A stretch of 62,716 nucleotides of DNA, filler included, from Stramenopiles sp. TOSAG23-6 (lineage: Eukaryota), in assembly GCA_900128565.1 (NCBI GenBank). It is 20 parts of 20 records of this genome, joined end to end, with 100 filler letters (N's around TTAATTAATTAA, not from the genome) between each part and the next. Parts side by side here need not be neighbours in the genome. Positions count along the whole stretch, not along the records: positions 1 to 3,053 come from LT637675.1; positions 3,154 to 6,205 come from LT637676.1; positions 6,306 to 9,356 come from LT637677.1; positions 9,457 to 12,507 come from LT637678.1; positions 12,608 to 15,655 come from LT637679.1; positions 15,756 to 18,801 come from LT637680.1; positions 18,902 to 21,947 come from LT637681.1; positions 22,048 to 25,091 come from LT637682.1; 12 more parts are not named here. One strand, 5' to 3'. Every line of letters starts with the position of its first letter. Position 1 is the first letter of the stretch. Below are positions 2,188-62,626 of this stretch, piece by piece. A model generated the notes under the pieces. The model saw only the letters and a list, made by a program, of their open reading frames with translations, ran no database searches and was not told the origin of the DNA. A program made the translations under genes and the position numbers.

Positions 2188-3001
2188 ATGCTGAATCGAA
2201 TTTTCTCTTCTTTAGGTGATCTTCTCAGCAGTTCTCACGAAGACTCTCCAAAGAAAAAAATGGTTCCAGTGGATAACAGCGCCGCATCGCCTAGCCTCAA
2301 GCGACGTAGTTTTAGAGTTGAAAATCCTGTTTCTCCAACATCTCCATTTTTAACCCCGTCAAAGCGATCGCGATTATTTTCAAACGAAACTACAGGATTA
2401 ACACCAGCAACAAAGAGTTTGTGTGTTGATACACAAAAGATATCCAATAATGAAAATGTTGAGTTGAATTTTCCGTCAAAGGACCTTGAAGACAATATTT
2501 CGGATTTCAATGATAGTATTTCGGATTTGGATGACAGTCTGGATTGGGAAGAAGTCATAAATTTAGAAAATAAACGAGAAAGTGCAGAAGTGTACGATGA
2601 TACCATAGAGAAAAATCTAGATGCAGCACAAAGACGAGCTTTAGCACTTGCAATTGATGGTTCAAATATATTTATCACTGGAAGTGGAGGAGTAGGCAAG
2701 AGTCATATCTTGAAATTGATTATTAGAAAATTGAAAGAGCAAAACAAACAAGTATGTGTATGTACGTTTTCGAATTTCAAATTTATTTTTTTGTACCAAA
2801 TTTCGTACCTAACGATTTTTTGTATGAGAAAAAACTTTTTTTTTTTCACAATAAATGTGCGCCAACTGGAATTGCCGCTAGTCATCTTGGGGGCACTACT
2901 ATACACACGGCTTTTGGTATTGGCAAGCCTACACAAGTATCAGATTTCCGAAAAATGTATGAGAAAGATAGGAAAACTGACCATTATTTAAGTAAGGGTA
3001 T
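2188..3001 (+). CDS. PIF1: PIF1-family 5'-3' DNA helicase, N-terminal part (3' partial, spliced)
   Basis: NIFITGSGGVGKS Walker A; after removing intron 2762-2856 it reads VCVCAPTGIAASHLGGTTIHTAFGIG (PIF1 motifs Ia/Ib). Confidence 0.85.
2762..2856 (+). other. non-canonical GT-AT intron (family member)
   Basis: GTACGTTTT...TTTCGTACCTAAC...CACAATAAAT; removal gives T+GT GCG CCA ACT GGA (CAPTG) in frame. Confidence 0.85.
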
Positions 3002-3746
3002 GTACGTTTCATATGAATTTCTAATTTAAGTTTTTTTTTCATACGAAATTTCGNNNNNNNNNNNNNNNNNNNNNNNNNNNNNNNNNNNNNNNNNNNNTTA
3101 ATTAATTAANNNNNNNNNNNNNNNNNNNNNNNNNNNNNNNNNNNNNNNNNNNNTTTTTAATTTTATCGCTTTCTTTCATTTTTTTTATTTTTAATCTACC
3201 AATTTTCTATTTTTATTTATATCTGAGTGTTGATTCCATATTTTTTAAGGCCTTTTTTCATTTTTAGTGTTTAATAAAACAACACAGAACTATCTTATAA
3301 TGATGTTATAATGATTTTATATATATATGCAACTGCTTCTATTTATATTATATTAATCATTGTGGCATTTCTATCCTCACGTATCAAATACTAAAGAATA
3401 CACTCTCTATAATAATTCAAATGAAAATTTTGAGATACCCGGTAACATATGATCAGCTTTGGATTTTCTCACCGGTCAGCAAGGCTCGTCACTAACTTTA
3501 TTTTTTTCGTACGAAAAACGTCCCATCATTACCGGCCAAACAAAGTCATTCAGATTTGTGTCGACTGTGTTGTTCGAGAGTGTGTCTTTGCTCTCTAAAA
3601 AGTCTCTCACAGAATAAGGCAGAATTTCATAAGAGAGATCGAGATAATTAATTTCAAGGCATTGTAGAGTAGTCTAGTAGGTATAGTATAACCTGGCGAA
3701 GGACTTGTTATTAGGGTAACTTATCAAGTGCGCTACTTTATTTATT

Positions 3747-5792
3747 ATGGACCTCTCTAGCATGAGTGGCGTGATTATGTAAGTACCATTATTACACAAC
3801 TCACATATTTATTTCTTTTAAAATTTTGAAGTAAAGGAAACACATCTCAACGTGTCTTCCGGTATTGATGAAAGCAATACACAAACTATTTCTTTTCTAT
3901 CATCATCATCCACAAATACTATCATCACTATCCACAAATACTATCATCACTGACCACAAATACCACTGACATATACAATCATTCATAGGGAGTATTCCGA
4001 TGACTCTACTGGAGAGCACGAATCAGATTATGAGCATGATATTGAGGATGATATGGGAAGTGGTGGAGGACCGCAGTCCCGCTCAGGAATGATGTCTTTG
4101 GATGAAACTCAGGACGCAAACGCCGGAGCCTCTCATCCTTCTACAGATGCTGCGGCACTGACAAGGGCAGCTCAAACGGCACTTTTGAGTGGAAACGGCG
4201 AAGGCTCTGTCAATATTACAGGTAATGGATGTGCCCAGACGTCGTCGAAAAAAAATTTCACTGTGTATATAATTAATGTTCATGCAGCAAATGGTGCAGT
4301 GTGGACAGTTTACAGAAGATACAGCCAGTTTAAGGCATTAAGTGAGAAAATACACATGAGGATGCACACAAGACTTGCTTTGCGAGTACGTGAGTCTTTA
4401 CCACCAAAAAAGATTATTGGTTCATTTGACCCTGTGTTTATTATTCAGAGACAAAAGGCGTTGTCAATTTGGTTAGGAGATTTAATGGATGCATTTCGCA
4501 ATATTTCTATGCCACCTTTTAATGACGAAGATTTACGTCTTTTTGTCACACACGATGCGAATAAGCCTCCAAAGGGTCTCCAAATATCGGTGAATAGTTC
4601 TACAGATAAATCTTCAGATAATATAGAAAACCAACAGCATGATAATGGTAATATGTGCCCAGATGGTCAAATGGAAGACGCATTATCTCAAGCGACTTCA
4701 ACGAATGTATCACGATCACGTGATGTTCGTACTGGTAAAGTAGTTTCTTTGGAAGATTTTGAAATGATTAAAGTAATTGGAAAGGGAAGTTTTGGTAAAG
4801 TTCTCCTTGTACGTAAACGTGAGGGTCGTAATTTATATGCGATGAAAGTGTTGGATAAAAAGAACATCATTCGGAGGAATCAAGTTGAACATACAAATAC
4901 GGAAAGGCGAGTGCTTGGTCAGATTCGTCATCCTTTTATTGTTACATTGCATTATGCATTTCAAACACGAACTCGTTTATATTTTGTGTTGGATTATTGT
5001 TCTGGAGGTGAATTGTTTTTCCACTTAGGTCGTTGCGGACGTCTTCGCGAATCACTCGCTTGTTTTTATGCTGCTGAAATCACTCTTGCATTAGCACATT
5101 TACATTCTTTGGGTATTGTATACCGAGATTTGAAACCGGAAAATATTCTTCTTGATGGTGACGGTCATGTACGACTTGCTGATTTTGGTTTATCAAAAGA
5201 AGGAATTACTACGGGAACATCTGGTACAGGATCATTTTGTGGTACTGCAGAATATCTAGCACCAGAAATTCTAAATCGCACAGGGCATGGTACAGGTGTA
5301 GATTGGTGGGCCCTTGGTATGGTTTTGTATGAAATGCTTACGGGTATGCCACCTTGGTATACTAAAGAACGTGAAGTTTTATTTGAACGCGTTCGTCGTT
5401 CACCTCTTGAATTTCCAAAACATGTCTCTCCCAATGCAAAATCAGTTATTCAAGGTTTTCTAGTACGTGATTCTGCTAAACGTATTGGAGTTCGACTTGG
5501 TGCACAGGAGGTAATGGCACAGCCGTTTTTTGCGCATATTGATTGGAAAGCTTTATACGAAAGGAGATTATCTCCACCTTTTCGACCCCGTAAAGATGTA
5601 GGTTCATTGGATGCCTCAAACTTTGACAAGGTATTTACTCGTATGAAAATTGAAGTACCTACAGGACCATCTTCCATTGCTGGATCAAATACATTTGCAG
5701 GATTTTCATTTGAGGGACATATTCAAGACAGACGTGCACGTGAATTAGAACGTATGGAGAGAGAGAGACAAAATGGGAATGGTATCCCATAA
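3747..5792 (+). CDS. PX-domain AGC Ser/Thr kinase (SGK/S6K-like); exons 3747-3778 and 3989-5792
   Basis: PX motif WTVYRRYSQF...LPPKK; kinase GKGSFGKV, YAMK, YRDLKPEN, DFG, FCGTAEYLAPE; hydrophobic motif FAGFSF. The upstream exon joins in frame through a GTAAGT...CATAG intron. Confidence 0.9.
3779..3988 (+). other. canonical GT-AG intron (not of the repeated family)
   Basis: GTAAGT donor, CACTGAC branch-like site, CATAG acceptor; restores the frame AT+G GAG TAT into ORF 4053. Confidence 0.75.
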
Positions 5793-6311
5793 CATTTTGT
5801 GAAGATCTATTGTATGTGTAGGGTAGTAACATTTTTTAAGTAAGTGATGAATACAGTGGAAATACTCCAATATTGTTTTATCTATAAACGAAGACATTTG
5901 TCAAATTATTTAAAATGTATATTTTTACTCCATCATTTAACATGTGTAAGAGTGTTTTCTTTAAAGTTTCTTTCTTTTAAAGTTTCTTTCTTTACAAATT
6001 TCTGTACAAGTCATATCTACTCGATACTTTAAGTCATATCCAGCCCATCCAGCCCCACCACCACCACATGCTACTCGATACTACACTAGATTTGAAAAAA
6101 TTACCAAGAGGACTAAATGTAGACACAACGACTGGTTGTTGAATTAAGTACATGTACACAGGACAAATCCATACTCATTACTTTTTTCATACCAGACTTT
6201 ACAGANNNNNNNNNNNNNNNNNNNNNNNNNNNNNNNNNNNNNNNNNNNNTTAATTAATTAANNNNNNNNNNNNNNNNNNNNNNNNNNNNNNNNNNNNNNN
6301 NNNNNATACAT

Positions 6312-7770: not shown

Positions 7771-9356
7771 TTAAATTATTTCAGGAACTAAAAAAATAAT
7801 TGGAAACAATAGAATGATGAATAACACCAATAAACCTGTATACACAATGATGGGTGAAGATAAAATTGATACGTTTTGTCCACTTCGTTGGCTTTGAGGA
7901 CTATTCCGTTGAAGCAAGCACTTTTTCAAATCTTCATTAATAGCTCTTCTTATAAAATCACGTTTTTCTTTCATATTTTTACCTTTTGCAAGANNNNNNN
8001 NNNNNNNNNNNNNNNNNNNNNNNNNNNNNNNNNNNNNNNNNACGAAATCTTGGACTTTCATCTGTAGTTAGATGTTGCTGTATCCAGTCACGCATTTGAC
8101 ACATTTGCAATGATGGATTTTCCCCTCCATGTGCAATCTTATTTCGGCGTATGCATTCTTCATTTGTAGCTTCTGTGAGTCTTTGACTCGCTGTTGTACC
8201 ACTACCATCGTCATTTGATAAATTCGCAAACTTTTCTGCCACGTTTTTGATAATACGATCCTCTTCTTCTCTATTCACATTAACATTCTTTGAAGCAACT
8301 TTATTATTTTCATTTGTATCATCATTCGCAGTTGCATGACTAGCCTGTGAATCATCTACACTTGTACGAGTATTAGCCGTAGTTTTATCTGCATGTTCAG
8401 ATTCTTTTTTCAATTTATCTTTTATAGCATCTGCGACGAGTTTTGGCGTATTATCAGAAGGTCCTAAATTATTTTTATGTAGTTTATGTCGTTTATGTAT
8501 TGATGCAGTAAGCCGTCGTTTATGTGAATCAAAATTACATATCAAATGATCTTTTTTTGTTTCGCCCATGTTTTTTTGGATTTCTTCAAAAATTTCCTCC
8601 AGTTCATCGGGTACGTAAATGACAGGGTCTGTCATCCTAACACTACTCATGTAATGTCATGCTGTATTTCTGTACATAGCCCAAATATGATTCATCATGC
8701 CTCCAACATTTATACCTTCTCGATAATCGAACAAAAATTCGCTGTCTAATCCTGTTCCAAAGCTTTTGTTATTTGGTGTACCAAAAGCCTCAAACGATGT
8801 ACACCGATCAGTATCCTCAGCATCGTCCTCCCAGCTAAAAAGATGACCTCCTGGACAAGAATCATTCACATCAAAAATAATTTCATCCATATTATGACAA
8901 TCTTGCCACATGGCCCAAATACGATCCACTTGTGTGTGATGCATATAAAACAAAGGATCTGAAGGCGAGAGAAATGATCTCATATGACCACCTAATTGAT
9001 TATGTTGAGTATTATGAGGTACAGTTTCCAAAGCTGCACGAAATCCAGCTGAACCACCATACGTACTTCTATTATGAATAATATCCATTAATTCTAGATA
9101 AGAGACCAATGGTCGCTTAGAATCCCATTTGTCTTGTGCAAAATTCCAATTTGTACCACGAGACAAACAATATGTATTTTAGAAAAATATTTCAAAAGTT
9201 TTCTAAAAAAAATTGTTAGGTACAAAATGTCGTACGAAAAAAAATCGATTTTTTTTTTTTCGAAATTAAAAAAAAAATAAAACATACATCCTCCATGATC
9301 TACCCAGTCACTAAACGGTGATGTTTCACTCATACAACCAACATTTTTCTCTAGAC
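7771..9356 (-). CDS. tyrosinase (type-3 copper) domain protein with C-terminal TM segment; 5' partial
   Basis: PHNTQHNQLGGHM...SPSDPLFYMHHTQVDRIWAMWQ (CuB site); intron 9172-9287; one in-frame TGA at 8657-8659; N gap near 8000. Confidence 0.75.
9172..9287 (-). other. non-canonical GT-AT intron (family member)
   Basis: GGA T|GTATG...GTACCTAAC...AAAATACAT|AT TGT TTG TCT CGT gives GYCLSR in frame with the tyrosinase ORF. Confidence 0.8.
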
Positions 9357-9559: not shown

Positions 9560-11238
9560 CTACCTCTCACCTTCTTTGATTTTTTATCTTTTAAAAATTG
9601 ACGTTTTTTCTTTTTTTCTCGTTTTTTTAAAATGGAATCGTTGATTGAACCTTCTTCATCCAATTTATTTGCTTCATTTTCAAGTTCTATCGTTTCAATT
9701 GTATCATCTTCAACTGCACCATGTATTTTGTAAAATATTTAAAAAAAAATTCTAAAAAATTTGTTAGGTACAAAATTTTTATAAAAAAAAAAATCGATTT
9801 TTTTTTTTTCGGTAAAAAAAAAAAATAAGACATACATCATTTTCGTCTATACTATTACTCTTTACATTTGCTTTTTCTTGGGCAAGTTCAGCAACAGTTT
9901 TACCTGCCATTAAAGCAGCTTTCTGATCTGCAATACGTTGCTCTTTTTTACTTAGTTTTTTTCGTCCAAATGTCATTTCTATTTTTCGTTTTTTACGTCC
10001 AATTAGAATATTCAATTCATCATTTATTGTTTTGCAAGTCAGACGAATGTATCGACGAAATTTCCAATTTAATTGCCAAAAAAAATTAAGTTTCCAACAA
10101 ATAAATGAAATTATAATAAATATCAAAAGGAATACAATACAAGGAAATAATAAAGGTAACCCAAACACATTCCAATAAGGAGCTGACAGTTTTGTTCCAC
10201 ATTGTAAACCTGTTGTGTTGGAAAAATATTTCAAAAAAAAAAAAAAAATCTTTTAGTTTAGGTACAAAATTTACTATAAAAAAAAATGTAGACTTTTTTG
10301 TAAAAAAAAAAAATAAAAACATACACCTCCGATAATAATAAAGAAAACCTAATTGTAAATCACAATGACCACATAGAGGACCAATATATCCAATAGAACA
10401 TGAATTATCTTGGACACCTAAAGTCTTTTCATCATTCATACTCATTATTGTATTGATTGGTCCAAATAATGTCGGTTTTACACCTGTATCCGGTGTCATA
10501 ACACCAAACTGTAATACCATGTATTTTGGAAAAATATTTCAAAAAAAAAAAAAAAATTGTTAGGTACAAAANNNNNNNNNNNNNNNNNNNNNNNNNNNNN
10601 NNNNNNNNNNNNNNNNNNNNNNNNNNNNNNNNNNNNNNNNNNNNNNNNNNNNNNNNNNNNNNNNNNNNNNNNNNNNNNNNNNNNNNNNNNNNNNNNNNNN
10701 NNNNNNNNNNNNNNNNNNNNNNNNNNNNNNNNNNNNNNNNNNNNNNNNNNNNNNNNNNNNNNNNNNNNNNNNNNNNNNNNNNNNNNNNNNNNNNNNAAAA
10801 TATTTCAAAATTTTCCAAAAAAAAAAATTTGTTAGGTAAAAAATTTTTTTACCAAAAAAAAAAATAAATTCGATTTTTTTTTTTAGTTTCAAAAAAAAAA
10901 AAAAAAAACATACATTGTTGTGTCACAATAACATTTGTCAAGGTGGATTTTGATTGAATCGTCCAGTCGTAATATCCTGGTAATATAGTGGGTACAATGA
11001 CACCAACAGTGGATAATCCACCATCAGTTAATTTTTGTCCAGTTGTACAATGCATTCCATCATCACAGGATGTACACATTGTATTATCATCATTATTATT
11101 ATTATTATTATTATCAGAGGTATCAGAGGTATCAGTATTATCCGTCTTTCTATTTAAAAAAGAATTAGGCTTACCTGTATTACTACAAAAATAAATAAAA
11201 AAAAACTGTTAGCTTAGGTATGAAATGTTGTAGTAAAC

Positions 11239-11280
<42 letters not shown>

Positions 11281-11673
11281 GGGAAAAAAATTCGTAAAAA
11301 AAAAAAAAATTTTTTCAAAAAAAAAAAAAAAAAAAAAAAAACATACATTGATTCTTCACGTCTTTTTTTTTGTAAATATTCATCTGGTGGTGCAATTTGT
11401 AAAAGACCATTTTCTAATGGAGTTTTTTTATTACTAATTGTGATGTTCTTTGCAGCGTTTTCCATTGGGGAAAGACAATTTTGAGTCAAATCTTGTTGTA
11501 ATGGACATATATTTTGGAAAAATATTTCAAAAAAAAAAAAAAAAATTGTTAGGTACAAAATTTTTTTACCAAAAAAAAAAAATATTCGTTTTTTTTTTTT
11601 TTTTTTTTTTCGGTAAATAATAAAAAAAATAAAACATACATTATTCCATGTAGATACGCAATTATATGGTGTC
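9560..11673 (-). CDS. multi-exon cysteine-rich membrane protein (receptor-like; CxxC modules, GPLCGHC, TM helix), partial
   Basis: Exon peptides CTSCDDGMHC, ILPGYY, CSIGYIGPLCGHC, RCLQCG plus a hydrophobic helix; interrupted by family introns and N gaps. Confidence 0.6.
9721..9835 (-). other. non-canonical GT-AT intron (family member), phase 0
   Basis: AAT GAT|GTATG...CAAAATACAT|GGT GCA GTT joins two ORFs in frame. Confidence 0.75.
10210..10324 (-). other. family intron with canonical AG end
   Basis: AGG T|GTATG...GTACCTAAAC...CCAACACAACAG|GT TTA CAA TGT gives RRCLQCG. Confidence 0.7.
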
Positions 11674-13181: not shown

Positions 13182-14996
13182 CTACTGTACTGCTTGAAAA
13201 TCCAACTTTCTTCTTTGTAAGTCTGTTGCTTGTTTCCAATGATTCCGTAAATGTTGTTGTATTTTTTCTTTGTGTTGTTTTCTTTGTTGTCGATCTATTA
13301 TTAGATGTCTATGTACTTGATCTAGATAATATCTTTGATCTTTGATATCTCGATCTCTCATTCTTCTCTTTGCTCTTTCTTTGTCACGAACCTGTTTGTC
13401 AAGAGCACGCCGCAAACTTCTTTGAACTCGAGCTGCTTTTCGTTTATCTTTTTCGGTCACTTTAGATTTCATTGGCCTGTACTATAAGGAAAATACTACA
13501 AGTATGTTTTATTATGCAACGCCCAGGGTCCGGATCCGTCATAAAACGTCGTGAAGCATCCCGTTGTGCATCAATTTTAGCTTTGGCTTGTGCCTGTGCT
13601 ATTATATAATCACGATTTTCTTTTCTATTTTGACGTGACATTGCTAATTTTGATCTATGAGCAGCTTCCGATCGTTTACGTCTTCTCTGAATTTCCAAAT
13701 CGCTTTGTTGAAGCCTTTTTTTCTCTTCATCAAATGCTTTAGTCTGACGTTGGTATGCGATACTAATGGCATGATCTCTCAAATGAGAATTTCTATACAG
13801 TCTTTCCTGTGCATGTGATCTATGCTCGGGAATGAGAAATCGTGGTAGGACATCTCGGGCTGCTCTTGGACCTATTTTTTTAGGAAATATTTCAAAATGT
13901 TTTCATATATTAAGTTATGTTTCGTCCAACATAATTACATCTATAAAAAATTTAAAAAAAAAACCCATCAAGTCGTAAAAAACAAAAGTGTAAAGTGAAG
14001 AAAAGAAGAAGAAAAGAAGAAGAGAAAAACGTACAATGATCTGAAATTTTTGTATCTAAAATATTCAATAAATCACCTAATTGCATATCACTCATACTAT
14101 TTGTTATAGGCATTTTAGGTGTTTTTGTATACAGTTCTTGCGACATTTGATGTATATTATTCGAATTCTTGTTCAGGCCATTCTTACTTTTTGTTTTTTT
14201 CCTTTCTTTATATCCATTAGAACCATTAGTTGCACGAGATGATGTTCCATGAGCAGCTTCACGGACATCACTCAGAAAATGATCAGCAGTATCTACTTCT
14301 TTTTTTTTATCAAGCCCAGGAGTACCAAAATCATCCTCAGGTCCGTTTTTTGTCGTATTATCCCCTTTTGGTAATGGTAGTAAGCCAACCACTGGTTTAC
14401 CAGAAATCTCATAGCCATTCATATCTGCCTTGTCCTGAAAAAGTTGTGCAGTTGCCGACATGGAATGTGTTACTGGTCGATTTCGTGATGCTTCAGGATC
14501 CTGTTGGAACATATCTCGGGCATCTGCAACATTGAAACGAAATCCCATGAAACCTCGTTTCGCGAAAATAATACCAATACCAGGGAAATCAACTTGTAGG
14601 TGATGACCCTGACGTGCAAGACGACCAATGTGTTCAAGCATCCTACTTATTGCAATCCGTGCTTTATGCCATTAAAATTATGATTTTAATAGTAAATTTT
14701 ATTCGTACAACTACATAATTAGCATCAACAGAGGGAGCTTCTGAAGGAAGTGGATGTTCTCGTGTACGCAGGCCTCGTTTAAAAGTTGCGTCTAATCGGA
14801 AAACAAGTTTGTGAGTCTTTTTAATTATACAAAAACGACCAAAATTTGGAATTCGTACGCCTCTTCCGTTTCCGGTCTTTTCGCGTACAAATTCGGCTAA
14901 AGCATTCCATGCAGCTGCATTTGACTCTTCTACATCATTTATAAGGTCGGCTAAAGAATAATGTGTCTTTGATTCATTTTGTTGAGCGTCTGACAT
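13182..14996 (-). CDS. CCDC81-like protein (two HU-like domains plus coiled coil), multi-exon
   Basis: WNAL..FV...GRGVRIPNFGRF and second domain VDFPGIG, followed by long coiled coils; exon joins partly unresolved. Confidence 0.6.
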
Positions 14997-19001: not shown

Positions 19002-19635
19002 CCAAAGTCTATAATTTTCCTTACATGTGATGCATTTGGTGTACTACCACCTGTTGCTAAATTATCAAATGGACAAGCTATGTATGTTTTTTTTTTCAAT
19101 TTCGAATTTTGTTTTCGTATGAAAATTTGTACCTAACAAATTTAAGTTTTTTTTTTGTATCTACTACAAGAAAAATTGGAGAAACATGATTCGAATGCTT
19201 ATCTAGTTAATACTGGATGGACAGGTGGTGCATATGGTGTCGGGGAGCGAATGTTCGTTTCCATGATACATTTCGAATATATATATTTTTTTTTTTTTAT
19301 AGTAAATTTTGTACCTAACAACTTTTTGTGTTTTTCGGTAAAAAAAAAATATTTTTTCACAATTTATGTCTATCAAAGAGACAAGAGCTTGTATTGATTC
19401 AATTCTTGATGGTTCAATTTCTAATTCGACTTTTGTAAATGATTCTATATTTGGTTTCCAAATCCCACAAGGTTTACCAGGCGTATCAGCTGATGTATGC
19501 AATCCTCGAAATGCATGGGATGATAAAAACTCATATGATGTTCAAGCTGCAAAATTGGCTGATATGTTTCGTGAAAATTTCAAAAAATATTCAGAACCTG
19601 GAGTCACTGATTATACTGAATTTGGACCAAAGTAA
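19002..19635 (+). CDS. PCK1: phosphoenolpyruvate carboxykinase (ATP), C-terminal exons
   Basis: [21 protein letters not shown]...[44 protein letters not shown]. Confidence 0.92.
19253..19367 (+). other. non-canonical GT-AT intron (family member)
   Basis: CGA AT|GTTCG...GTACCTAAC...CACAATTTAT|G TCT ATC restores conserved G-x-R-M-S-I. Confidence 0.85.
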
Positions 19636-20785: not shown

Positions 20786-21894
20786 TCATGACGTTGTAGA
20801 TGATTCTGCGCAAGGAAGTTTTGACATAAAAATTCCCTTATCTTTTCGTTTCTTTTCAGCTTCAAACACGATTGAATTCACATAAATATCATCAAAACTT
20901 TCTCCCAACATGAAGACATCATGTCCTGACGACTGATTTGTGATTGAAATAACTTGTCGTGGTTGTACTCTAATATACCCATTTGTTCTCATCATTTGAC
21001 ATGTATTTTGGAAAAGAAATTCAAAAAAAACTAAAAAAAATTGTTAGGTACAAAATTTACTATATTACTATAAAAAAAAAATTTCAAATTAAAAAAAAAA
21101 AAAACGTACATAATAAAAAAAAAAAAACGTACATAATAAATCACGTTTAGGTTCCTCCCATGCGTGTTCTATCATCCAGACTCCCACAGTATGACTATGG
21201 AAAGGAAATTTTTTCAGAATTTCAAATTCACTGCCCTCCGTATCTATTGAAATGAAATCAATAAAGAAAGGTATGTTCAAATTGTTCTGATCTAATATTG
21301 TATCTATTGTTTCTGTCATCATTTTCTTTTTTCTGCCGTTTGCTTGTCTATTGGCTTCTTCCCGACGAGTTTGCCTTGACATCAAGTTTTCTATACCTCC
21401 CAAAGCATTAGCCATTGTGAAGAGAACCTCTTTTTTTTTGTCTGCTAAAACAATATGAAGTAGCGTACAGTGACGCTTGTCAAAATTATGTGGGAATGGT
21501 TCAATACAAATTCCTTGCCAACCTAGTTGTTCAAATAGTAAAGAATTTGAAAGATGTTGTCCATCATTTGCACCAATGTCAATAAAGAAATGTTGTATTT
21601 GACTTTCTATTTGTTGTTTCATGAGTATATTACGTGCTTCAGAAATAGAAGGCAGCAAACTTAACACACAAGCATCTTGTCCTACTTGGCTATGAATTGT
21701 AAGAACGTAATCAGTACGAATGTCACTACCAGAATAAAAATATTCTTTTCGACATGTTTCTGCAGATGTACAGGTTTTATCGCGTTTATCTATATCTATC
21801 TTTACCAAGTCAATATACTCTTGAACTATATGTAATACGTCACGTTGACACTGTGCTGTCCAATCTACAGTGGTCCCAGGACTATTAATATAAC
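20786..21894 (-). CDS. FkbM-family methyltransferase, 5' partial, spliced
   Basis: SQVGQD, FFIDIGANDG..SNS, GWQGICIEP, IDFISIDTEGSEFEIL; the last exon joins via intron 21001-21132. Confidence 0.85.
21001..21132 (-). other. non-canonical GT-AT intron with tandemly duplicated donor
   Basis: TTA T|GTACG...CCAAAATACAT|GT CAA ATG gives LLCQMMRTNGY; TTATTATGTACGTTT is repeated about 23 nt inside. Confidence 0.8.
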
Positions 21895-22047: not shown

Positions 22048-22083
<36 letters not shown>

Positions 22084-46765: not shown

Positions 46766-46879
46766 GTATGTTTTTTGTAGGGTTTTTTTCAATTTTTTTT
46801 TTTTTTTTTTATAGTAAATTTTTTACCTAACAAAAAAAAAAAAAAAAAAAATTAAAAAAAATATTTTCTAAAAATACAT

Positions 46880-47030
46880 GCTATTCAATTGAGTGGTACA
46901 TTTCAATACTGTGTTCGATTGTCAGCATATGTGGAAACCATGATGACGTCATTTGAAAGAATTGTTCAATATGAAAATCTCCCATCGGAACCTGGTTTAC
47001 AATTACAATTGACAAAACACGAAAAAACGA
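46880..47030 (+). CDS. exon of an ABCC/MRP-type ABC transporter
   Basis: AIQLSGTFQYCVRLSAYVETMMTSFERIVQYENLPSE, the end of ABCC TMD2 (…E..M.S.ER..Y). Confidence 0.75.
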
Positions 47031-47164
47031 AAAAAAAAAAAAAAAAAAAAAAATTGAAAAAATTNNNNNNNNNNNNNNNNNNNNNNNNNNNNNNNNNNNN
47101 NNNNNNNNTTAATTAATTAANNNNNNNNNNNNNNNNNNNNNNNNNNNNNNNNNNNNNNNNNNNN

Positions 47165-50359: not shown

Positions 50360-52217
50360 GCTTGTAGATTAAAATCGCTATTTTTGGAATGCAGTGAAAA
50401 TGATATGAGTGAATTAGAGGTAGATAATAACGAAGCGTTTTTTATGGGTGTAGCATTTTGTGGTGTCGCAGGAGAAACTAGTGAAAGTAACAATCCTCAA
50501 AATAATTATAATACACTAGAAAAGCGCCGATTTCGTGTATTAAAGAGTTGTTGTGGAATCATGTTATATATATTAGGAAAAGATCAGTATCATCATCGTG
50601 CTAGACATATGCTAGCCTTTGGGATTCGTAATGGTCGAGTATTGGCAGAAACCGCTGGAATTTCTTCATCAATTGTAGAAAAATTTGGTTTAGATCAAGC
50701 TGTTGAAATTTATTCACCTTTATTTGAACGTTCAAAACTTAGGCAAATTGTTGCTGTATGGATTCATGTACGTTTATTTTCCTATACATTTTCCTATACA
50801 TTTTTTTTATTATTTTTGTTTTTTCGTAAAAACATTTTGTACTTAACATTTGTTTTTTACCAAAAAAAAATATTATTTCACAGTATAGGATACTACTGCT
50901 ACTGGTTTTTTTGCATTGGAAAAACATCAAGCAAAATATGATTACTTGCGTAATAAGTACGTAACAACGTATATAAATATGTTGTGTAAACAAGATCCAA
51001 TAAAATGTCTTGTCCGTCTTGCTTCTCTTCAGAAAAATATCATGAACAAAACTTTCATGTCTTCTGAATCGAATCAAAATCTTCGAAAGTTGTGGTTGGA
51101 TTCTGTTTTTGTTGCCCGACTGAGTGTACTTGCACGTACTTTACCGACTAAAGAATCCAAAGTAATATCGAGGCTTTATGGTACGAATACAGCAGACACT
51201 CTTGCACAAGAATCTTTTGAGTTTCATAATAATAATGAAAAAGATGAAAAATTAGAAATTGTATATTCTTTATACATTTCCATCCTAAAGTCAACACATA
51301 TATTTAACCAAAGTCGCCGAATTATCCATGCAGATGTTTATATTTCCGATTTACCCGGTGTTTCTGCAATGTATCAAAAGATGAAAATAGAAAAAGAAGA
51401 ACGAAAACATAATGAATTAGTTCAAGCCGCAGAGCTTCTACTAGTTGGATTTTATGTAGGGTATAGAATGAAGTCATATTCTAAAATATTAACTAGCAAA
51501 GATTCTCTTGTTCAAGTACGTCTTTTTTGTGAAAACAAATGGCCTGAACAATTAAGCGGTGGAAGAGGGAAATGGATAAAATTATCAATGTCATACAAAT
51601 ATCCAGAGTTAGTCAAACCAACTGTACAAGGGTCAAAAATAAAAAATAAACAAGAAAAGAAAGTCAATGATACTCTATCAAATAAACAAGAAAAGAAAGT
51701 CAATGATACTCTATCAAATAAACACGAAAAGGAAGTCAATGATACTCNATCAAATAAACAAGAAGTCAATGATACTCTATCAAATAAACAAGAAAAGAAA
51801 GTCAATGATACTCAATCAAATAGTTTAGTTTTTAAAAGTAAGTTAAATAAAAACACTAATAATGCGGATGATGAAGCAACATTATCATGTGATGAAGGTT
51901 CGAAATCTGGTTGTACGAACTCAATTTTAAATTTACCAAGTGCTACCCCTCAGATTGCGATTGTACCAATTGCCAAGGATGATGTAGTTATTTGTGATGC
52001 TCAGAAAGACTCAGAAAAAGATGAAGTCAATGATAGTATGATTATAGAGGAAGAAGTTCCAAAAATGACGGATAGTACTACTAATTCACTACTTTGTGAT
52101 TCTAACCCAAATAACTTGAAATTAAAATCTCAGGCTGAAAAAGAATACAAAATTAGTGAAAATACAAAACTTTCGTGTAATAATAATATAATTACAACGA
52201 GTACTGTACCAATGTAA
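50360..52217 (+). CDS. hypothetical protein, last two exons (50360-50767, 50889-52217)
   Basis: ORFs join in frame through family intron 50768-50888 ending GTATAG. Confidence 0.6.
51645..51818 (+). repeat. coding 33-bp tandem repeat (NKQEKKVNDTLS)
   Basis: About 5 copies of AAATAAACAAGAAAAGAAAGTCAATGATACTCTATC-like units. Confidence 0.85.
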
Positions 52218-53429: not shown

Positions 53430-55369
53430 TTTTGGAGTCAATTAAACAATAACAAACAAGGTGGAATGATTCCTCCTTGTGGTGTTGTTCCTTTTAGTGT
53501 ACGTTAAAAAAAAAAAAAAAAAAAAAAATTAAACATACATTGTATCACAATCAACCACGTAATCATCATCAACTTCATTTTCAATTTTTTTTTTTCTTCA
53601 TTGTGTCATTTATTTCACAAATATTGTCATTAGGGTTAACCCTATCATTACTTTGTATAGAATGTTTCTCAATAGATGTATCAATGTCAAAAGATGCCAC
53701 AAAAGTGTCTTTTTTGTCATTTTTGTCTGTTTGTATTTCGTGTTTTTTTTTATCTTTGTCTGGAATGGATAAATTCTGTTTTGTTGATATTTCGTGTTTT
53801 TTGTTGTTTGCATTGAAATCATTATAATGAAGCCATCGTGGGCATGCTGAACATATCCGATATGGTGTATCATTTTGAATTTCTATTCGAGCAACTAAAT
53901 TATTATACGCAAAACAACGAACATATATTTTAAGAAAATATTTTTTCCAAAAAAAAAAAAAAATTTTGTTAGGTACAAAATTTCGTATGAAAATATATTT
54001 TGAAAAAATATTTTTTCCAAAAAAAAAAAAATTTTTGTTAGGTACAAATTTTTCATAGTAAACAATAAAAAAAAAATGTACTATGGAATACATCAAACCA
54101 AATTATGAGAAAATTAAAAATTAAAAATTTAAAAAAAAAAAAAAATCCATAATTTTTGTTAGGTACAAATTTTACTATGAAAAATATAATGTAAAAAAAA
54201 AACGTACATGATGTTTGTATACAGAATGTGTACATTGTTTTGTACCATTTTCTTGACCTAATACATTAGGGTTAGGGTTACATGGAAGTACTGTAGAATT
54301 TGAAAAACATAATTCTAAAAAAAATGCAAAAGATAAATTCCATTCCAATCCATTTAAACACACTGTAGGCAAGACGTTCTTCTGACATTTCGTGCAATAT
54401 GAATTTTAAAAAAAATATTTAAAAAAAAAAAAAAATTTTGTTAGGTATGAAATTTGCTACGAAAAAAAAATTAAAATTTGAAATTAAAATTTGAAATTAA
54501 AATCACATACAAGACCATGTAATTATCGTATTGCGTATAGAAACAGGTTTGTCCAGAGGATCGACTGCGATGTGAACTCTAGTATTCCCTCTTGCATAGT
54601 AATGTCTGTGCTCAAAACATTTTTTTTTGCACAGTTTATCACCACATAATTGAATATATACAGTGAAATAATATTTAAAATTTTATTTTTGTATTAGGTA
54701 CGAAAATCTCTAGGAAAAAAAAAAATTTTTTAAAATTAAAATTTTTAAAATTAAAATTTTTAAAATTAAAATTAAAATTTTTTTTTGTTAGGTACGAAAT
54801 TTACTATGAAAATTATTATTATTATTTTTTTTTTTGTGAGATGGAAACAAACTTTACGTGACGATCCTCTAGAGCTCGAACCAACTAAACCTGCCGCAGC
54901 GGCTAACTCTCGCGAAGGATTTGATCCATTTCGTGACGAAAAAATTCTTTCCCCAAAGCAGTTTTGTAACAAATATGGTTTGTAAAAAAATATTTCAAAT
55001 ATTTCAAATATTTTTGTTAGGTACAAAAAAAAAAAAAATTCGAAATTTTTTTTTTTTGTACAAAAATAATAAAAAAATACATTCACCAATGGTGACGTCA
55101 TTTCCCATATAGCATTGTACTGATTTAACTTCAGGTGGATGGCATTGTGCTTCTTCTGCTGGAATATTACGTTTTAGACAACATTGAGCATATTTAATTA
55201 TAGAGTGTAAATTATTTTCATTTTTTTCAAAAAACATTTTTTTTGTATTTTTTGTATTTTTTGTATTTTTTGTATTTTTATCATTATTTCGTGTATTTAG
55301 TGTTAAACTAGTAGCATCAGCAATATCACTTGTACTACAACTTCTACTTCTCATCAAGCGAGGCTTGAG

Positions 55370-59785: not shown

Positions 59786-60846
59786 ATTTTATTTGGAGTG
59801 AGCTGAAGAGCACGAGATCGAGCTTGTATGCGTTGTGAAAAAATATTCTTTGAATAAAAAAAAACGTTAGGTACGAAACATTTGGATTAGACACAAAAAA
59901 AATATTTGAAATTGATTTAAAAAAAAACTCCTTAGGTACAAAATTTCGTATGAAATGTTGTTTTGAAATTGCTGATAAAAACGTACATGCGTTGTGGACA
60001 GAAATCACTTTCAGTCGTATGTACAACTGTTTTAATTGGACTGTTATTTGCTTCAATTTTTCCAGCAATATTTGTATTAATTGCGTTTATGCGCCATTCG
60101 CGTTCCCTAGCTTCAAGACTAGAAGTAAAGGCCGTTGAGGCTCGCCGTCGCTTCAATCGAACATCTGACGGCGGTAGTCGATAGTCAACGTCAAAGATCC
60201 GTTGCTGACGGAGCCGCTCTGCTTCAAAAAGTAAACGAGTATCTACAGGAAATGCATTTTTCGTTTTATTTGACGCTTTATTTATCTGTGTACGAGCATC
60301 GGGAGTTGTGGTACATTGGCGTTTATTTCTGTTTCTCTGTGAGCATCGCTGCGCTTCATGAGCATTGAGACGACGAATGACTTTATGCCACTCCTTTTTA
60401 TCTGCCGAACTTTCGGGCGGTCTGTACGTATTTCGAGAATTCGTTGTAACAAGTAATGCAGGTGTACGATAGGTTATACCGCATCCATGGCAGCAATGTA
60501 TAAAGACGTCTTTGGTGCCCGAGATTGGAGTAAAAGTTCTTTCCTTTGCCGATCCGCGACCACGCTGACCTATTGATGTGCCACGTTTGCGTGGTGGTGG
60601 AGGAGGTGCTTGTTCCCTATGCATATTTTTTGGATGTTCCAATTTCACATTCCTGGAAATATTTGATCCATTATAATTTTTGGATCCTTCAAATGGTTCC
60701 TTCATATCATACTGCCCCGTTGAAATGTTACTTTGAAAGAATCTACTCGAAGAAGAAGGCCTTGTACTACTACGCATCATAGTAGGTTGGGAAACCCTCA
60801 TATTAGATTGAGAAGTCTCGCGGTACCCATGATGTGGCGCATGCAT
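59786..60846 (-). CDS. hypothetical basic protein, first exons (including a 42-nt exon 59786-59827)
   Basis: 304 aa ORF continued in frame across intron 59828-59986. Confidence 0.55.
59828..59986 (-). other. GT-AT intron with 10-nt direct repeat and two branch modules
   Basis: CACAACGCAT|GTACG...CACAACGCAT|ACAAGC. Confidence 0.7.
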
Positions 60847-61227
60847 TGTCGTAGATCGACCAATAATAGGAATGTATTTGTGTTGCTGAGTTGTTTTGCT
60901 TTTGCTCGAAAATAATGTAATTTGATTTGATTTGATTTCACGTGAATAGACACAAAGGTCAAAAGGAGAGCGATTTTGCTACCATAATAAAAAAAAGTAG
61001 CAGATATCGATGTTCGAATATATGACATTTTCGAAAAATACTACGGAAATTTCTACTTGATGGAGATTTTCGGTGCATTTTTGGTGTTGTCAATCCAATT
61101 ATCTCTCAAATGAGTCAAATCTGAAAATTTAATGATTGAATCGACTTTGCTTTGTTGAATCACGCACGGAAAGAAAAAATGATTCAGAAGCAACATGTGT
61201 TAAGTATATGATTGAGCAATTACTGAA

Positions 61228-62626
61228 ATGGCCCGACCTAGAAAACTAAGCTTTCAACATGCAGTGGAATCAGAGATCGATTTTCTATTGGAGCAGCAGT
61301 ACTATAAGCAAATACATTTCTGTCACGATAATCCTCCACTTGTCAATCTGAAGTGGAATAAAGAGATACGGTGGAATCCAGATGATAGAACAATAGTATG
61401 TGTATGTGCAAATCCAAATTATTTATTCTACGCTCCTATGGCAATAACAATTGTCGTTCCCTTTGAACAAATGCAAGTTCCTCTTTGTTTTAGTGTAATC
61501 AATGGCCATGAGACTACTCAAAGATTACGAGTCAATGAAGTTTTAATAAAACAATTAAATGATGAATTAAGGAGTGACACATCGGAATCTATATCCTCTA
61601 TACGTGTAGTTGGACTAATCACGGAACTCATAGAAAAATATCAAAATACTTTATGGCCACCTGTACCAACTAAGACTGAACAAAAACGTGCTCTATGGGA
61701 ATGTGTTTGTCGCGAGTTAGTTCAACTTGAAAACCCAGGTATTGGTATTGAAAACACAATCAATGAGTGGGATATTTTAATTACATTGTTTTCTGCAGCA
61801 CTGTATTCATCACGGCGTTCTTCTCTCTGTGACCCATGTACGTTTTCATTTCAATTTTGAATTTTTTTTTTTTTTATAAAAATTTTGTACCTAACAAATT
61901 TTAGTTTTTTTTTTTCGAAATATTTTTTCATAATCCATTCCCAAGAACTAAAAGTTTCAGAGACCAGAATAATAATTGTTTGTACCAGTCAGCTTTTGAT
62001 GCTTTTTTAAATCTTCCAAGTCTGCAAACTATTTTACAGTGTGTTAAAAGTTCAAAAATATCTAGAATATCAGGAGATGACGAAACGAAAAACAGTGGGA
62101 TTGACTGTCTGTTGACTTTACCTCAGTTGGAACTTTTACAATGGATCATTGGAGGATTTGCTTTTTGTGGTATGAGACTCAGAAAAAAAAAAAAAAAACA
62201 TTCCAATTTTAAACAACCTTTAGTGACTGAAGAATATACAATACACTACACTTCAGCGGATCCACCAATGTTTACAAAACTTGAAGAACAATATGGAACA
62301 GTGACTGCATTCCACGGAACTCATATAGAAAATGTTTTCAGTGTACTGACTCATGGATTGAAGAGTATGTCTGGGACAAAATTTCAGCGTACCGGTGCTG
62401 CATTTGGCACAGGTGTATATCTTGCTGGTGATGTAACTGTTGCATCTAACTTTTCATTTAGCGGATCTCGGATTTGGGCTCAATCGAAATCAAATTCATC
62501 AGCTTGGAAAAGTTCTTTTAATAATTATAGTAAGAGTGATGATGGTACTGTTAGTGGTACTATTTTAGATGCACACGTCCCACCGAAACCAACTACATTT
62601 AGATGTGTTTTTGTTTGTAGTGTTAT
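61228..62626 (+). CDS. mono-ADP-ribosyltransferase, PARP16/PARP6-8-like, 3' partial
   Basis: LFSAALYSSRR..LCDPFP; AFHGTHIENVFSVL..GL; AAFGTGVYLA......FS. Confidence 0.85.
61838..61938 (+). other. GT-AT intron (family member)
   Basis: CCA T|GTACG...TGTACCTAAC...CATAATCCAT|TC CCA gives DPFP, in frame with ORF 61980. Confidence 0.85.

What the first reader, a model, noticed from the sequence alone, without database searches (positions are those of the whole stretch)
2762..61938. Abundant family of non-canonical GT-AT introns in conserved housekeeping genes
Seen: dozens of ~75-160 nt T-rich inserts start GTAYGT (also GTTCGT, GTATTT), contain TGTACCTAAC and end ...CA(A/C)AATACAT or a variant, without an in-frame AG. 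In PIF1 (CAPTG), PEPCK (ERMSI), CPI1 (FPCYQF), AP2A, FAB1 (WSYC), PARP (DPFP), FkbM, tyrosinase and an LRR gene, conserved motifs and frames are restored by removing GT...AT. Across cases, the only register with invariant terminal dinucleotides is GT...AT. Known: major-spliceosome acceptors are almost always AG. Lineage-wide non-canonical introns are known from a few groups (e.g. euglenids, Fritillaria, Amoebophrya), and I do not recall a GT-AT-dominated family. Inference: this organism routinely splices at AU acceptors, implying an altered or parallel 3' splice-site recognition system.
Basis: partly seen in the sequence, partly recalled or inferred. Interest (0 to 1): 0.95.

Follow-up and report, generated by a model that had tools for sequence, protein, structure and literature searches.

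The report
Repeated introns that end in AT
A marine protist's genes are interrupted by a high-copy family of short look-alike introns that start normally (GT) but mostly end in AT instead of the near-universal AG, which, if RNA data confirm it, means its splicing machinery picks the intron's end in an unusual way.

Summary
The branch-site-like word TACCTAAC occurs 43 times in the window against 1.15 expected. It marks a family of T-rich inserts of about 80-160 nt with three shared parts: a GTAYGT start, a conserved branch region and a conserved 3' block. Of 26 complete copies, 21 end AT, 4 AG and 1 TT at the same aligned position.

Removing GT...AT keeps the reading frame in 17 of 21 tested copies (P = 1e-5). 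It restores exact collinearity with homologues at three junctions: PEPCK, PIF1 and CPI1. The assembly's own GT-AG gene models break conserved motifs.

- The copies form an introner-like repeat family.
- AG is still used by a minority of copies.
- The upstream exon ends in the same letter or letters as the intron, usually AT. The cut register is therefore ambiguous, and the AT may be a duplicated target site.

No spliced transcript could be found, so splicing at AU is inferred, not shown. I found no publication of such a family. The best reading is major-type spliceosomal introners with AT 3' ends (confidence 0.6).

The parts
2762..2856 (+). Family intron in the PIF1 helicase gene, GTACGT...AAAT, 95 nt, phase 1
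   Evidence: Pfam PIF1 profile: exon 1 residue 194 sits at position 54 and the first residue of exon 2 at position 57, with one residue and the split codon between them.
19253..19367 (+). Family intron in PEPCK, GTTCGT...TTAT, 115 nt, phase 2
   Evidence: HMM of homologues scores best for a 115-nt removal, 186.1 against at most 182.5. Pfam positions run 422, split codon, 424. Intronless relatives L001 and L002 read [11 protein letters not shown] / GERMSIEQTR.
36906..37022 (+). Family intron in CPI1 (cycloeucalenol cycloisomerase-like), GTACGT...ATAT, 117 nt, phase 1; contains CCCTAA repeats
   Evidence: HMM of 20 homologues: 373.8 bits for the GT..AT removal, next best 368.7, in-frame AG at +15 scores 353.8.
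37130..37319 (+). Composite family intron with two branch motifs; an in-frame AT end lies at 37319
   Evidence: Homology cannot fix the 3' end.
41654..41783 (+). Family intron with branch variant GCTAAC, ends TATAT, phase 0
46766..46879 (+). Family intron-like stretch joining a DHHC-type exon to an unrelated-looking exon; frames disagree; probable assembly chimera
50768..50888 (+). Family intron with branch variant TACTTAAC, ends TATAG (AG) at the family's aligned end
61838..61938 (+). Family intron in a PARP16-like gene, GTACGT...CCAT; exon 1 also ends CCAT
   Evidence: Frames of 207 and 239 codons agree. Pfam ARTD15_N and PARP. Slide of 4.
59828..59986 (-). Family intron with two branch motifs; the last 10 nt of the intron equal the last 10 nt of exon 1
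54975..55080 (-). Family intron, GTATTT...CCAT
   Evidence: Frames of 364 and 66 codons agree.
54399..54510 (-). Family intron, GTATGT...TCAT
53923..54207 (-). Composite 285-nt intron with three branch motifs (internal tandem copies), ends ATAT
34221..34309 (-). Family intron in the alpha-adaptin gene, GTATTT...ACAT, phase 0
33768..33878 (-). Family intron in the alpha-adaptin gene, GTACGT...ACAT, phase 0
   Evidence: Frames of 144 and 165 codons agree. Pfam domains lie roughly collinear across it.
24751..24862 (-). Family intron ending ACTT (TT); exon 1 also ends TT
   Evidence: Frames of 57 and 272 codons agree. Slide of 2.
24467..24598 (-). Family intron, GTATGT...ACAT, 132 nt, open in frame
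24202..24300 (-). Family intron with branch variant TACCTAAA, ends ATACAT; exon 1 also ends ATACAT
23868..24000 (-). Family intron ending ATAG (AG); exon 1 ends G
   Evidence: The frame chains to the next donor (sequence read).
23646..23769 (-). Family intron, GTACGG...ACAT
23371..23522 (-). Family intron whose flanking frames are off by one under GT..AT
22906..22983 (-). Family intron; frames fit an AT two nt upstream, within ATATAT
21001..21132 (-). Family intron in the FkbM methyltransferase gene with a duplicated 5' end, ends ACAT
   Evidence: Frames of 268 and 70 codons agree. Pfam Methyltransf_21.
13872..14034 (-). Intron with the family's 3' block but no TACCTAAC, ends ATAG (AG)
11507..11639 (-). 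Family intron; the upstream exon is too short (11 codons) to test the frame
10210..10324 (-). Family intron ending ACAG (AG)
9721..9835 (-). Family intron, GTATGT...ACAT, phase 0
   Evidence: Frames of 139 and 88 codons agree.
9172..9287 (-). Family intron in the tyrosinase gene, GTATGT...ACAT
   Evidence: Pfam Tyrosinase in exon 2.
19082..19170 (+). Hybrid of two PEPCK introns: about 50 residues of PEPCK are missing between them; the 3' half ends ...GTAT before CTACTACAA (LLQ)
   Evidence: Compared with L001 and L002. Sequence.

Best explanation
The window holds pieces of a marine protist genome. A source's name for one of its annotated proteins carries a MAST-3-type marine-stramenopile label; I did not verify this by phylogeny.

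Its genes are interrupted by a high-copy family of short, T-rich, introner-like major-type (U2-type) spliceosomal introns. Each copy brings four signals:
- a yeast-like 5' splice site, GTAYGT;
- a branch region, ...TTTTGTACCTAAC;
- a T tract;
- a conserved 3' block ending ...A(C/T)AT.

The intron is removed from its first G to the T of that last AT.

The last two letters most likely began as a copy of the target dinucleotide. The upstream exon ends AT in 18 of 26 copies and T in 25 of 26. The intron would then equal the element plus one copy of a 2-nt duplication, and its removal restores the original coding sequence.

AG (4 of 26) and TT (1 of 26) sit at the same aligned place. I therefore infer that the 3' cut is placed by position relative to the conserved 3' block or T tract and by the A at -2, with little demand on the last letter.

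Shown: the family, its borders, frame restoration, and exact protein collinearity at three junctions. Inferred: that the spliceosome does the removal, the exact cut register, the origin by target duplication, and how the 3' site is chosen.
For: 1. Family and abundance.
- TACCTAAC: 43 hits against 1.15 expected.
- The 3' block is shared across copies.
- Median pairwise identity is 0.67 against 0.49 for shuffled copies.
- On one 3-kb contig, 8770 (X1), 5355 (X4) and 964 (X7) contigs of public runs pile up, with depth peaks at the intron copies. This points to a very high copy number.

2. Frames. 17 of 21 copies are frame-consistent under GT..AT: 15 by the longest-ORF rule and 2 by chaining or homology. 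The binomial P is 1.0e-5.

3. Exact junctions.
- PEPCK: Pfam positions run 422, split codon, 424. The HMM gives 186.1 bits against at most 182.5. The closest intronless relatives read [14 protein letters not shown].
- PIF1: Pfam positions 54 and 57, with one residue and the split codon between.
- CPI1: 373.8 bits against 368.7 for the next best and 353.8 for the in-frame AG.

4. Canonical models fail. The assembly's own GT-AG models give GERMF-TRACID, losing SIKE, and a wrong-frame CPI1 tail. 12 of 21 copies have no usable in-frame AG.

5. Spliceosomal signals. GTACGT or GTATGT starts 20 of 26 copies. A CTAAC-type branch motif lies 34-62 nt from the 3' end, median 43. Both resemble the yeast consensus GUAUGU / UACUAAC, which I recall rather than computed.

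6. Duplication-like ends. The last exon letter equals the last intron letter in 23 of 26 copies and the last two in 18 of 26. Locus-specific matches are TT/TT, G/G, and 4, 6 and 10 nt.

7. Precedent. Introner families that carry their 5' site and take the 3' site from the duplication are in print (passages of 10.1101/2022.06.06.494994).
Against: - No spliced transcript was found.
- The one RNA-library contig on an exon of this stretch (X7 record 29, depth 2.3) runs 26 nt into the 3' end of intron 24751-24862 instead of being spliced. That is below the tool's 31-letter rule for bridging, and the contig may be DNA or pre-mRNA.
- 4 of 21 copies do not fit at the aligned AT: 23371-23522 is off by one; 22906-22983 fits an AT 2 nt upstream; 11507-11639 is untestable; 46766-46879 joins unrelated exons.
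- The target-duplication reading is weak. 3 of 4 AG-ending copies follow an exon ending in T. 5 of 26 copies (slide 1) share only the last letter, not the last two. A fixed exon consensus AT|GT would give the same picture.
- Terminal inverted repeats are weak: end-to-end duplex energy is -3.3 against -2.0 kcal/mol for shuffles.
- Copies are only about 67% alike, so the conserved blocks could be splicing signals rather than marks of recent mobility.
- In known spliceosomes a 3' U after a 5' G is a poor second-step substrate (recalled from yeast genetics, not tested).
Confidence: 0.6

Rival explanations
1. The same inserts are removed precisely, but the chemical cuts lie in another register that gives the same mRNA. 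One option is AT...AC (two letters to the left), handled like the known AT-AC intron class. The other is TG...CA (one letter to the left).
For: In 23 of 26 copies the border can slide one letter left without changing the mRNA, and in 18 of 26 it can slide two. With a shift of -2, 15 of 21 copies start AT and 9 of 21 end AC, the classical AT-AC pair. GT-AT borders are a known minority among Physarum U12-type introns: 17% of its non-canonical U12-type introns (passages of 10.1101/2020.10.12.336362).
Against: - Ends are far less uniform in those registers.
- The 5' end would read ATGTAYGT, not the U12 word RTATCCTT.
- The branch motif lies 34-62 nt from the 3' end, outside the short spacing given for U12-type introns (up to about 45 nt; 10-26 nt is recalled).
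- Copies whose exon ends TT or CT cannot be AT-AC.
- The perfect major-type GTAYGT would be unexplained.
Confidence: 0.12
2. The inserts are removed by something other than the spliceosome. Either an RNA endonuclease plus ligase cuts at the shared AT|G at both borders, or the DNA is excised as with eliminated sequences or excising miniature transposons flanked by short direct repeats.
For: Both borders read AT|G in most copies: exon 1 ends AT in 18 of 26 and exon 2 starts G in 19 of 26. Short direct repeats of variable length (1-10 nt) flank the inserts, as with pointers or duplications of DNA elements. Non-spliceosomal removal is discussed for Amoebophrya and euglenid introns (passages of PMC7789003; abstract of PMC6221363 in the listing).
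Against: - The inserts carry strong 5' splice-site and branch-site words and a T tract, which an endonuclease or a DNA excisase would not need.
- There is no stable hairpin bringing the ends together.
- Among the joints shown for DNA runs X1 and X4, none removes an insert precisely. All link different intron copies (15 were shown and 470 were not).
- Long ORFs read with the standard stop codons, unlike most ciliates with eliminated sequences.
Confidence: 0.08
3. The genes are spliced canonically at nearby GT-AG pairs, as in the existing annotation, and the apparent GT...AT fit is a coincidence of a T-rich sequence.
For: 9 of 21 copies have a stop-free in-frame AG with the same donor. The annotated coding sequences P0016 and P0019 use such models. 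4 of 26 family members do end in AG.
Against: - Those models delete or garble conserved residues. PEPCK loses SIKE, which both nearest relatives have.
- CPI1 scores 20 bits lower with the in-frame AG, and the annotated tail is in the wrong frame.
- 12 of 21 copies have no such AG.
- The frame statistics favour the aligned AT.
Confidence: 0.05
4. The inserts are not removed at all. They are transposon insertions or artefacts of a fragmented single-cell assembly, and the interrupted genes are broken or mis-assembled.
For: The assembly is a chain of ~3 kb contigs that often end inside these repeats. At least two joins between different copies exist. One RNA-library contig keeps the 3' part of an insert.
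Against: - Frames are preserved far more often than chance allows.
- Housekeeping genes such as PEPCK, PIF1 and CPI1 would all be dead.
- The same repeats pile up in independent seawater metagenome runs (X4), so they are not an amplification artefact.
Confidence: 0.05

Closest known systems
Introners that carry their own 5' splice site and take the 3' splice site from the target-site duplication (for example the Chrysochromulina family in Gozashti et al., 10.1101/2022.06.06.494994; passages read)
   Same: One repeated short element in many unrelated genes. The 5' site lies at the element's first base. The upstream exon end is repeated at the intron's 3' end. Removing the element plus one repeat restores the coding sequence.
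   Different: Those families use AG at the 3' end and were found in annotations built on GT/GC-AG or AT-AC rules. Here the repeated letters are AT, so the 3' end is non-canonical in 21 of 26 copies. The duplication here is only 1-2 nt and is not proven.
Non-canonical introns and introner elements of Amoebophrya (PMC7789003; passages read)
   Same: A marine protist with invasive repeated introns. Short direct repeats overlap the exon/intron borders, so the borders are ambiguous. The existing splicing rules fail.
   Different: Amoebophrya has no dominant terminal dinucleotides and has 8-20 nt inverted repeats that form a hairpin. Here the 5' GT, a branch word and one dominant 3' AT are kept, and end pairing is weak.
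Physarum polycephalum expanded U12-type introns with non-canonical ends (10.1101/2020.10.12.336362; passages read)
   Same: GT-AT borders occur there: 17% of its non-canonical U12-type introns. Intron numbers rose massively in one lineage.
   Different: The Physarum motifs are RTATCCTT and TTTGA 10-12 nt from the 3' end. GT-AT is a small minority there (non-canonical introns are 0.8% of all). Here the 5' site is major-type and AT is the majority.
Non-canonical introns of the tunicate Fritillaria and relatives (PMC13326754; only the abstract in the search listing seen)
   Same: A lineage where most introns escape GT-AG yet the major spliceosome is thought to act.
   Different: By that abstract both ends depart from GT/AG and the changes lie in U1, U6 and U2AF. 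Here the 5' end is fully canonical and only the last letter differs.
Nonconventional introns of euglenids and hemistasiid diplonemids (PMC12621601 section 5 read; PMC6221363 abstract in the listing)
   Same: Abundant non-GT-AG introns in marine protists.
   Different: Those have variable, GC-rich ends, no U1-complementary 5' site, few branch motifs, and rely on end-to-end pairing. None of this holds here.

Membership tests
Major (U2-type) spliceosomal introns | 5' splice site GT with extended consensus | tested here: met
   GTACGT in 10, GTATGT in 10 and other GT-hexamers in 6 of 26. GT itself was required by my donor search.
Major (U2-type) spliceosomal introns | Branch-site motif (YTRAY / CTAAC type) upstream of a pyrimidine tract | tested here: met
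   TACCTAAC: 43 hits against 1.15 expected. It lies 34-62 nt from the 3' end in 24 of 26 copies. The introns are 49% T.
Major (U2-type) spliceosomal introns | 3' terminal AG | tested here: not met
   AG in 4 of 26, AT in 21 and TT in 1.
Major (U2-type) spliceosomal introns | Removed from mRNA through a lariat | not testable with these tools
   No spliced read or contig was found. No lariat data exist.
Minor (U12-type) introns | 5' word RTATCCTT | tested here: not met
   No copy has it in any register.
Minor (U12-type) introns | Branch word TCCTTRAC close to the 3' end | tested here: not met
   The word here is TACCTAAC at 34-62 nt, median 43. The consensus and the 'up to about 45 nt' limit come.
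Minor (U12-type) introns | AT-AC or GT-AG ends | tested here: inconclusive
   A shift of -2 gives AT in 15 of 21 and AC in 9 of 21.
Introners (transposon-like intron families) | Many similar copies in unrelated genes of one genome | tested here: met
   Copies lie in PIF1, PEPCK, CPI1, FkbM, alpha-adaptin, tyrosinase, PARP and other genes. Identity is 0.67 against 0.49 for shuffled copies. Thousands of run contigs pile up on the copies.
Introners (transposon-like intron families) | Target-site duplication with locus-specific matches | tested here: inconclusive
   The last letter matches in 23 of 26 and the last two in 18 of 26. Locus-specific cases are TT/TT, G/G, and 4, 6 and 10 nt. But 3 of 4 AG-ending copies follow an exon ending in T.
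Introners (transposon-like intron families) | Terminal inverted repeats or other transposon marks | tested here: inconclusive
   Only GTAT/ATAC-type short complementarity: -3.3 against -2.0 kcal/mol.
Introners (transposon-like intron families) | Presence/absence differences between strains or species at single sites | not tested
   The nearest relatives found (56-60% identity) lack the PEPCK intron, but they are too distant to date an insertion.
Hairpin-type nonconventional introns (euglenids, Amoebophrya introners) | Stable pairing that brings both intron ends together; no conserved ends | tested here: not met
   Weak end pairing. Ends are conserved.
Eliminated DNA sequences of ciliate type | Precise loss from DNA of the expressed nucleus | tested here: inconclusive
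   None of the 15 joints shown for DNA runs removes an insert precisely; 470 joints were not shown. The standard stop codons are in use.

The most novel reading that the evidence does not exclude
In this marine protist lineage the major spliceosome routinely finishes introns at AU, in about four of five members of an intron family that appears to be very high-copy. It also accepts AG and even UU at the same place.

The AU would be the duplicated target dinucleotide of a mobile intron that brings its own 5' site, branch site and a 3' 'ruler' block. The element could then colonise any AT in a coding sequence without needing a pre-existing AG.

This would be the first intron family, and perhaps the first organism, in which 3' splice-site choice is largely freed from the AG rule while the 5' site and branch site stay canonical. 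It would also be a living example of the old idea that the exon-end and intron-end consensus arises from target duplication.
Probability: 0.5. Interest if true: 0.9.

Novelty: new variant of a known kind. Interest (0 to 1): 0.8.

Why it matters
The AG at the 3' end of introns is among the most constant signals in eukaryotic genes. Structural work explains it by contacts with the first intron G and the branch A (recalled).

A natural system with a canonical 5' site and branch site, in which the last letter is usually U, would be a ready-made test of how the second splicing step selects its site.

It would also show that mobile introns can spread without needing an AG at the target, which widens the sites open to intron gain.

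There is a practical side too. The public gene models of this organism are wrong at these junctions. Protein sets and comparative analyses that use this assembly therefore inherit truncated and frame-shifted proteins. Gene finders restricted to GT-AG will fail on this lineage.

Tried and rejected
RNA evidence.
- The look-up of sequencing runs gave one RNA run (X7, a seawater metatranscriptome, share 0.05) and several runs of 'organism B'.
- Read laying on 22048-25091 showed no spliced joint for X7, almost no exon cover, and only low-complexity matches for X10. This neither supports nor refutes splicing.
- All contigs that touch an intron border stop 10-28 nt inside the repeat, below the tool's 31-letter rule, so none counts as bridging.

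Transcript-derived proteins.
- A near-length search with the last PEPCK exon found only the assembly's own annotated coding sequence.
- The longer-length search found nothing above 68% identity.
- The metagenome scan found no same-species locus; the best was 60%.

Dead ends.
- No whole genome is held and Rfam has no hit in the window. snRNAs and splicing factors could not be inspected.
- A generic 'earliest in-frame acceptor' scan was too noisy, because T/A-rich introns are often open in frame.
- The third CPI1 exon has no homology that would fix the 3' end of intron 37130.
- The OGT-like junction at 6768 falls in a variable region of the Pfam profile.
- The alpha-adaptin junction is only roughly collinear.
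- The protein atlas gave a function (alanine aminotransferase) but no lineage.
- Earlier findings of the scan held nothing on this genome or this family.

Ideas considered and dropped.
- Nested (stwintron-like) two-step GT-AG splicing: the internal AG after the branch site is absent from many copies, and no register ends in AG.
- Hairpin-guided excision.
- A diplonemid origin: their non-canonical introns are GC-rich without a consensus.

Literature. Searches found no report of a GT-AT-dominated intron family. The main text of PMC5778133 has no word on splice sites, and PMC12614181 has none on introns.

Full report
**What the window is.**
The 62,716-base window is not one locus. It is a chain of contigs of about 3 kb in descending length (3053, 3052, 3048 ...), joined by runs of N around the word TTAATTAATTAA. 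Gene neighbourhood across gaps therefore means nothing.

Composition is 33% G+C. No whole genome is held.

Public runs that hold the DNA are three small DNA runs of one organism (X1-X3, shares 0.38-0.46) and seawater metagenomes (X4-X6). One seawater metatranscriptome (X7) has a share of 0.05.

The assembly's own annotated PEPCK fragment is in a public protein set, under a name with a MAST-3-type marine-stramenopile label. I use this only as a hint of lineage and did not test it by phylogeny.

**The observation.**
The word TACCTAAC occurs 43 times on both strands against 1.15 +/- 1.16 expected (0 of 100 shuffles reach 43). Around it lies a recognisable family:
- a 5' end GTAYGT followed by T runs;
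- often a TCGAAT/TCAAAT word;
- a 20-nt branch region, ...TTTCGTACGAAATTTTG-TACCTAAC;
- more T/A runs;
- a 3' block, GAAATATTTTT(T/C)CA(C/A)AATACAT.

A MAFFT alignment of the parts downstream of the branch word puts that block in one column range. I took the column after it as the family's 3' end, without using reading frames.

With the obvious GTAYGT donors this gave 21 complete copies. A donor-first search then added five complete copies with variant branch words.

In the 26 copies:
- the 3' dinucleotide is AT in 21, AG in 4 and TT in 1;
- the 5' hexamer is GTACGT in 10, GTATGT in 10 and another GT-hexamer in 6;
- the branch A lies 34-62 nt (median 43) from the end.

Copies are 78-163 nt long, plus composites with two or three branch regions. 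They are 49% T and 34% A. Median pairwise identity is 0.67, against 0.49 for shuffled copies.

**Are they removed from GT to AT?**
Three kinds of evidence bear on this.

*Frames.* The phase of the longest upstream ORF and that of the downstream ORF agree with removal of exactly GT...AT in 15 of 21 copies by the plain longest-ORF rule.
- Two more copies (36906-37022 and 23868-24000) agree once the downstream frame is fixed by homology or by chaining to the next donor.
- 17 of 21 against a chance rate of one third gives P = 1.0e-5.
- The four others: 23371-23522 is off by one letter. 22906-22983 fits an AT two letters upstream in ATATAT. 11507-11639 has only 11 upstream codons. 46766-46879 joins a DHHC-type exon to an unrelated-looking exon and is probably an assembly chimera.

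*Exact junctions.*
- PEPCK: the last complete codon before 19253 aligns to position 422 of the Pfam profile, and the first complete codon after 19367 aligns to position 424. The split codon AT|G fills 423.
- An HMM of the full-length homologues scores the 115-nt removal at 186.1 bits. Every variant with another length or protein scores 182.5 or less.
- The two closest relatives in marine metagenomes have no intron there. They read ...[16 protein letters not shown]... and ...GVGERMSIEQTRCC..., which is the window's product, [16 protein letters not shown].
- PIF1: exon 1 residue 194 sits at profile position 54 and the first residue of exon 2 at position 57, with one more residue and the split codon T|GT between.
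- CPI1: an HMM of 20 homologues gives 373.8 bits for the 117-nt removal (AGFPC|YQFEDF). The next best variant scores 368.7, and the in-frame AG 15 nt downstream scores 353.8.

*Failure of canonical models.*
- The assembly's own annotated proteins use GT-AG. The PEPCK model reads GERMF-TRACID and loses SIKE. The CPI1 model continues in the wrong frame.
- With the same donor, 12 of 21 copies have no stop-free in-frame AG up to 60 nt downstream. Most of the rest would lose four or more codons.

1. AG is not abolished. Four family members end in AG and one in TT, at the same aligned position as AT.

2. The border is repeated. The last letter of the upstream exon equals the last letter of the intron in 23 of 26 copies, and the last two letters match in 18 of 26.
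   - The exon ends T in 25 of 26 and AT in 18 of 26. The downstream exon starts G in 19 of 26.
   - There are locus-specific matches. The one TT-ending intron follows an exon ending TT. One AG-ending intron follows the only exon ending G. Three copies share 4, 6 and 10 letters.
   - Hence a mature mRNA cannot distinguish GT-AT from TG-CA or AT-AC. Only uniformity of the ends speaks for GT-AT: GT 21 of 21 by construction and AT 19 of 21, against AT 15 / AC 9 at shift -2. Likeness of GTAYGT to a major-type 5' site speaks for it too.
   - The pattern is what a 2-nt target duplication would give. Introner families that carry the 5' site and take the 3' site from the duplication are described. That paper also notes that a fixed exon-end consensus gives the same picture and cannot be told apart. 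Three of the four AG-ending copies follow an exon ending in T. I therefore rate the duplication as likely, not shown.

3. It is a very high-copy repeat family. On one 3-kb contig, 8770, 5355 and 964 contigs of runs X1, X4 and X7 were laid. Depth peaks fall exactly at the intron copies.
   - Contigs of the assembly often end inside copies.
   - The repeats have caused mis-joins. Between ...LSNGQAM| and |LLQEKLEKH the window lacks about 50 PEPCK residues that both relatives have. The 'intron' at 19082-~19170 is therefore a hybrid of two introns. Its 3' half ends ...GTAT before CTA CTA CAA, which is again AT.

**RNA.**
I could not obtain a spliced transcript.
- In the one RNA library, cover of exons is almost nil. 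Its single exon contig (record 29, depth 2.3) runs 26 letters into the 3' end of intron 24751-24862, as the DNA contigs do. This is under the tool's 31-letter rule, and the contig may be DNA or pre-mRNA.
- None of the 15 joints shown removes an insert precisely; 470 joints were not shown.
- Protein and metagenome searches found no same-species transcript.
- Splicing is thus inferred from frames and homology.

**Mechanism.**
Shown:
- a canonical major-type 5' site;
- a CTAAC-type branch word at a usual distance;
- a T tract;
- a conserved 3' block;
- a cut placed so that the element plus one copy of the exon-end letters is removed.

Inferred:
- The major spliceosome acts.
- The A at -2 is kept, in 25 of 26 copies.
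- The last letter is only weakly read (T, G and T-after-T all occur).
- The site is set by position relative to the 3' block or T tract rather than by scanning for the first AG. Many copies have an AG, and several ATs, between branch site and end that are not used.

Pairing of the two intron ends is weak: -3.3 against -2.0 kcal/mol for shuffles. A hairpin-guided mechanism as in Amoebophrya or euglenids is therefore unlikely.

U12-type membership fails on the 5' word and on branch spacing.

**Comparison and novelty.**
The closest known things are:
- TSD-co-opting introners;
- Amoebophrya introner elements with direct repeats over the borders;
- the minority GT-AT borders among Physarum U12-type introns.

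None combines a canonical 5' site and branch site with a dominant AT 3' end.

Six full-text searches and look-ups in two papers on the likely lineage found no report.

I rate it a new variant of a known kind: an introner or spliceosomal intron family with a non-AG 3' end. Interest is high, tempered by the missing RNA proof.

Noticed in passing
whole window, e.g. 3054-3153, 6206-6305, 21948-22047: The window is a concatenation of ~3 kb contigs sorted by falling length, separated by N runs around TTAATTAATTAA. Adjacent genes are not neighbours in the genome.
   Followed up: yes
19082-19170 (+): The PEPCK gene lacks about 50 conserved residues (YHFLSGYTAK...YAD in relatives L001 and L002) between two intron halves. 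This is probably an assembly collapse between two copies of the intron family.
   Followed up: yes
46252-47064 (+): A DHHC-type zinc-finger exon (..RAHHCRICDT) is joined through a family intron to an exon that reads like a different protein (..ERIVQYENLPSE..), with frames that disagree. This is probably a chimeric contig.
   Followed up: partly
36925-36945 (+), about 47215-47235 (-), about 54230-54250 (-): Telomere-like CCCTAA repeats (2-3 units) lie inside two introns and in one exon.
   Followed up: no
21001-21132 (-), 53923-54207 (-), 59828-59986 (-), 37130-37319 (+): Some copies carry internal tandem duplications: a repeated 5' end, or two to three branch regions. The family therefore also grows by internal duplication.
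   Followed up: partly
P0016 and P0019 (public annotated proteins of this assembly; window 19082-19635 and 36167-37200): The public gene models force GT-AG. They yield proteins that start inside introns, lose conserved residues or shift frame.
   Followed up: yes
22048-25091, run X7: A seawater RNA library holds 964 contigs matching the intron copies, while exons are almost uncovered. The source could be unspliced RNA, excised introns or DNA carry-over.
   Followed up: partly
24467-24598 (-): This 132-nt family intron is open in frame, so an ORF scan reads straight through it (304-aa ORF 23930-24844).
   Followed up: no
6768-6882 (+), OGT-like gene (Glyco_transf_41): The in-frame 3' end is ...ACTAT, and an out-of-frame AG follows two letters later (TATAG). 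This would be a good test case for AT against AG choice.
   Followed up: partly
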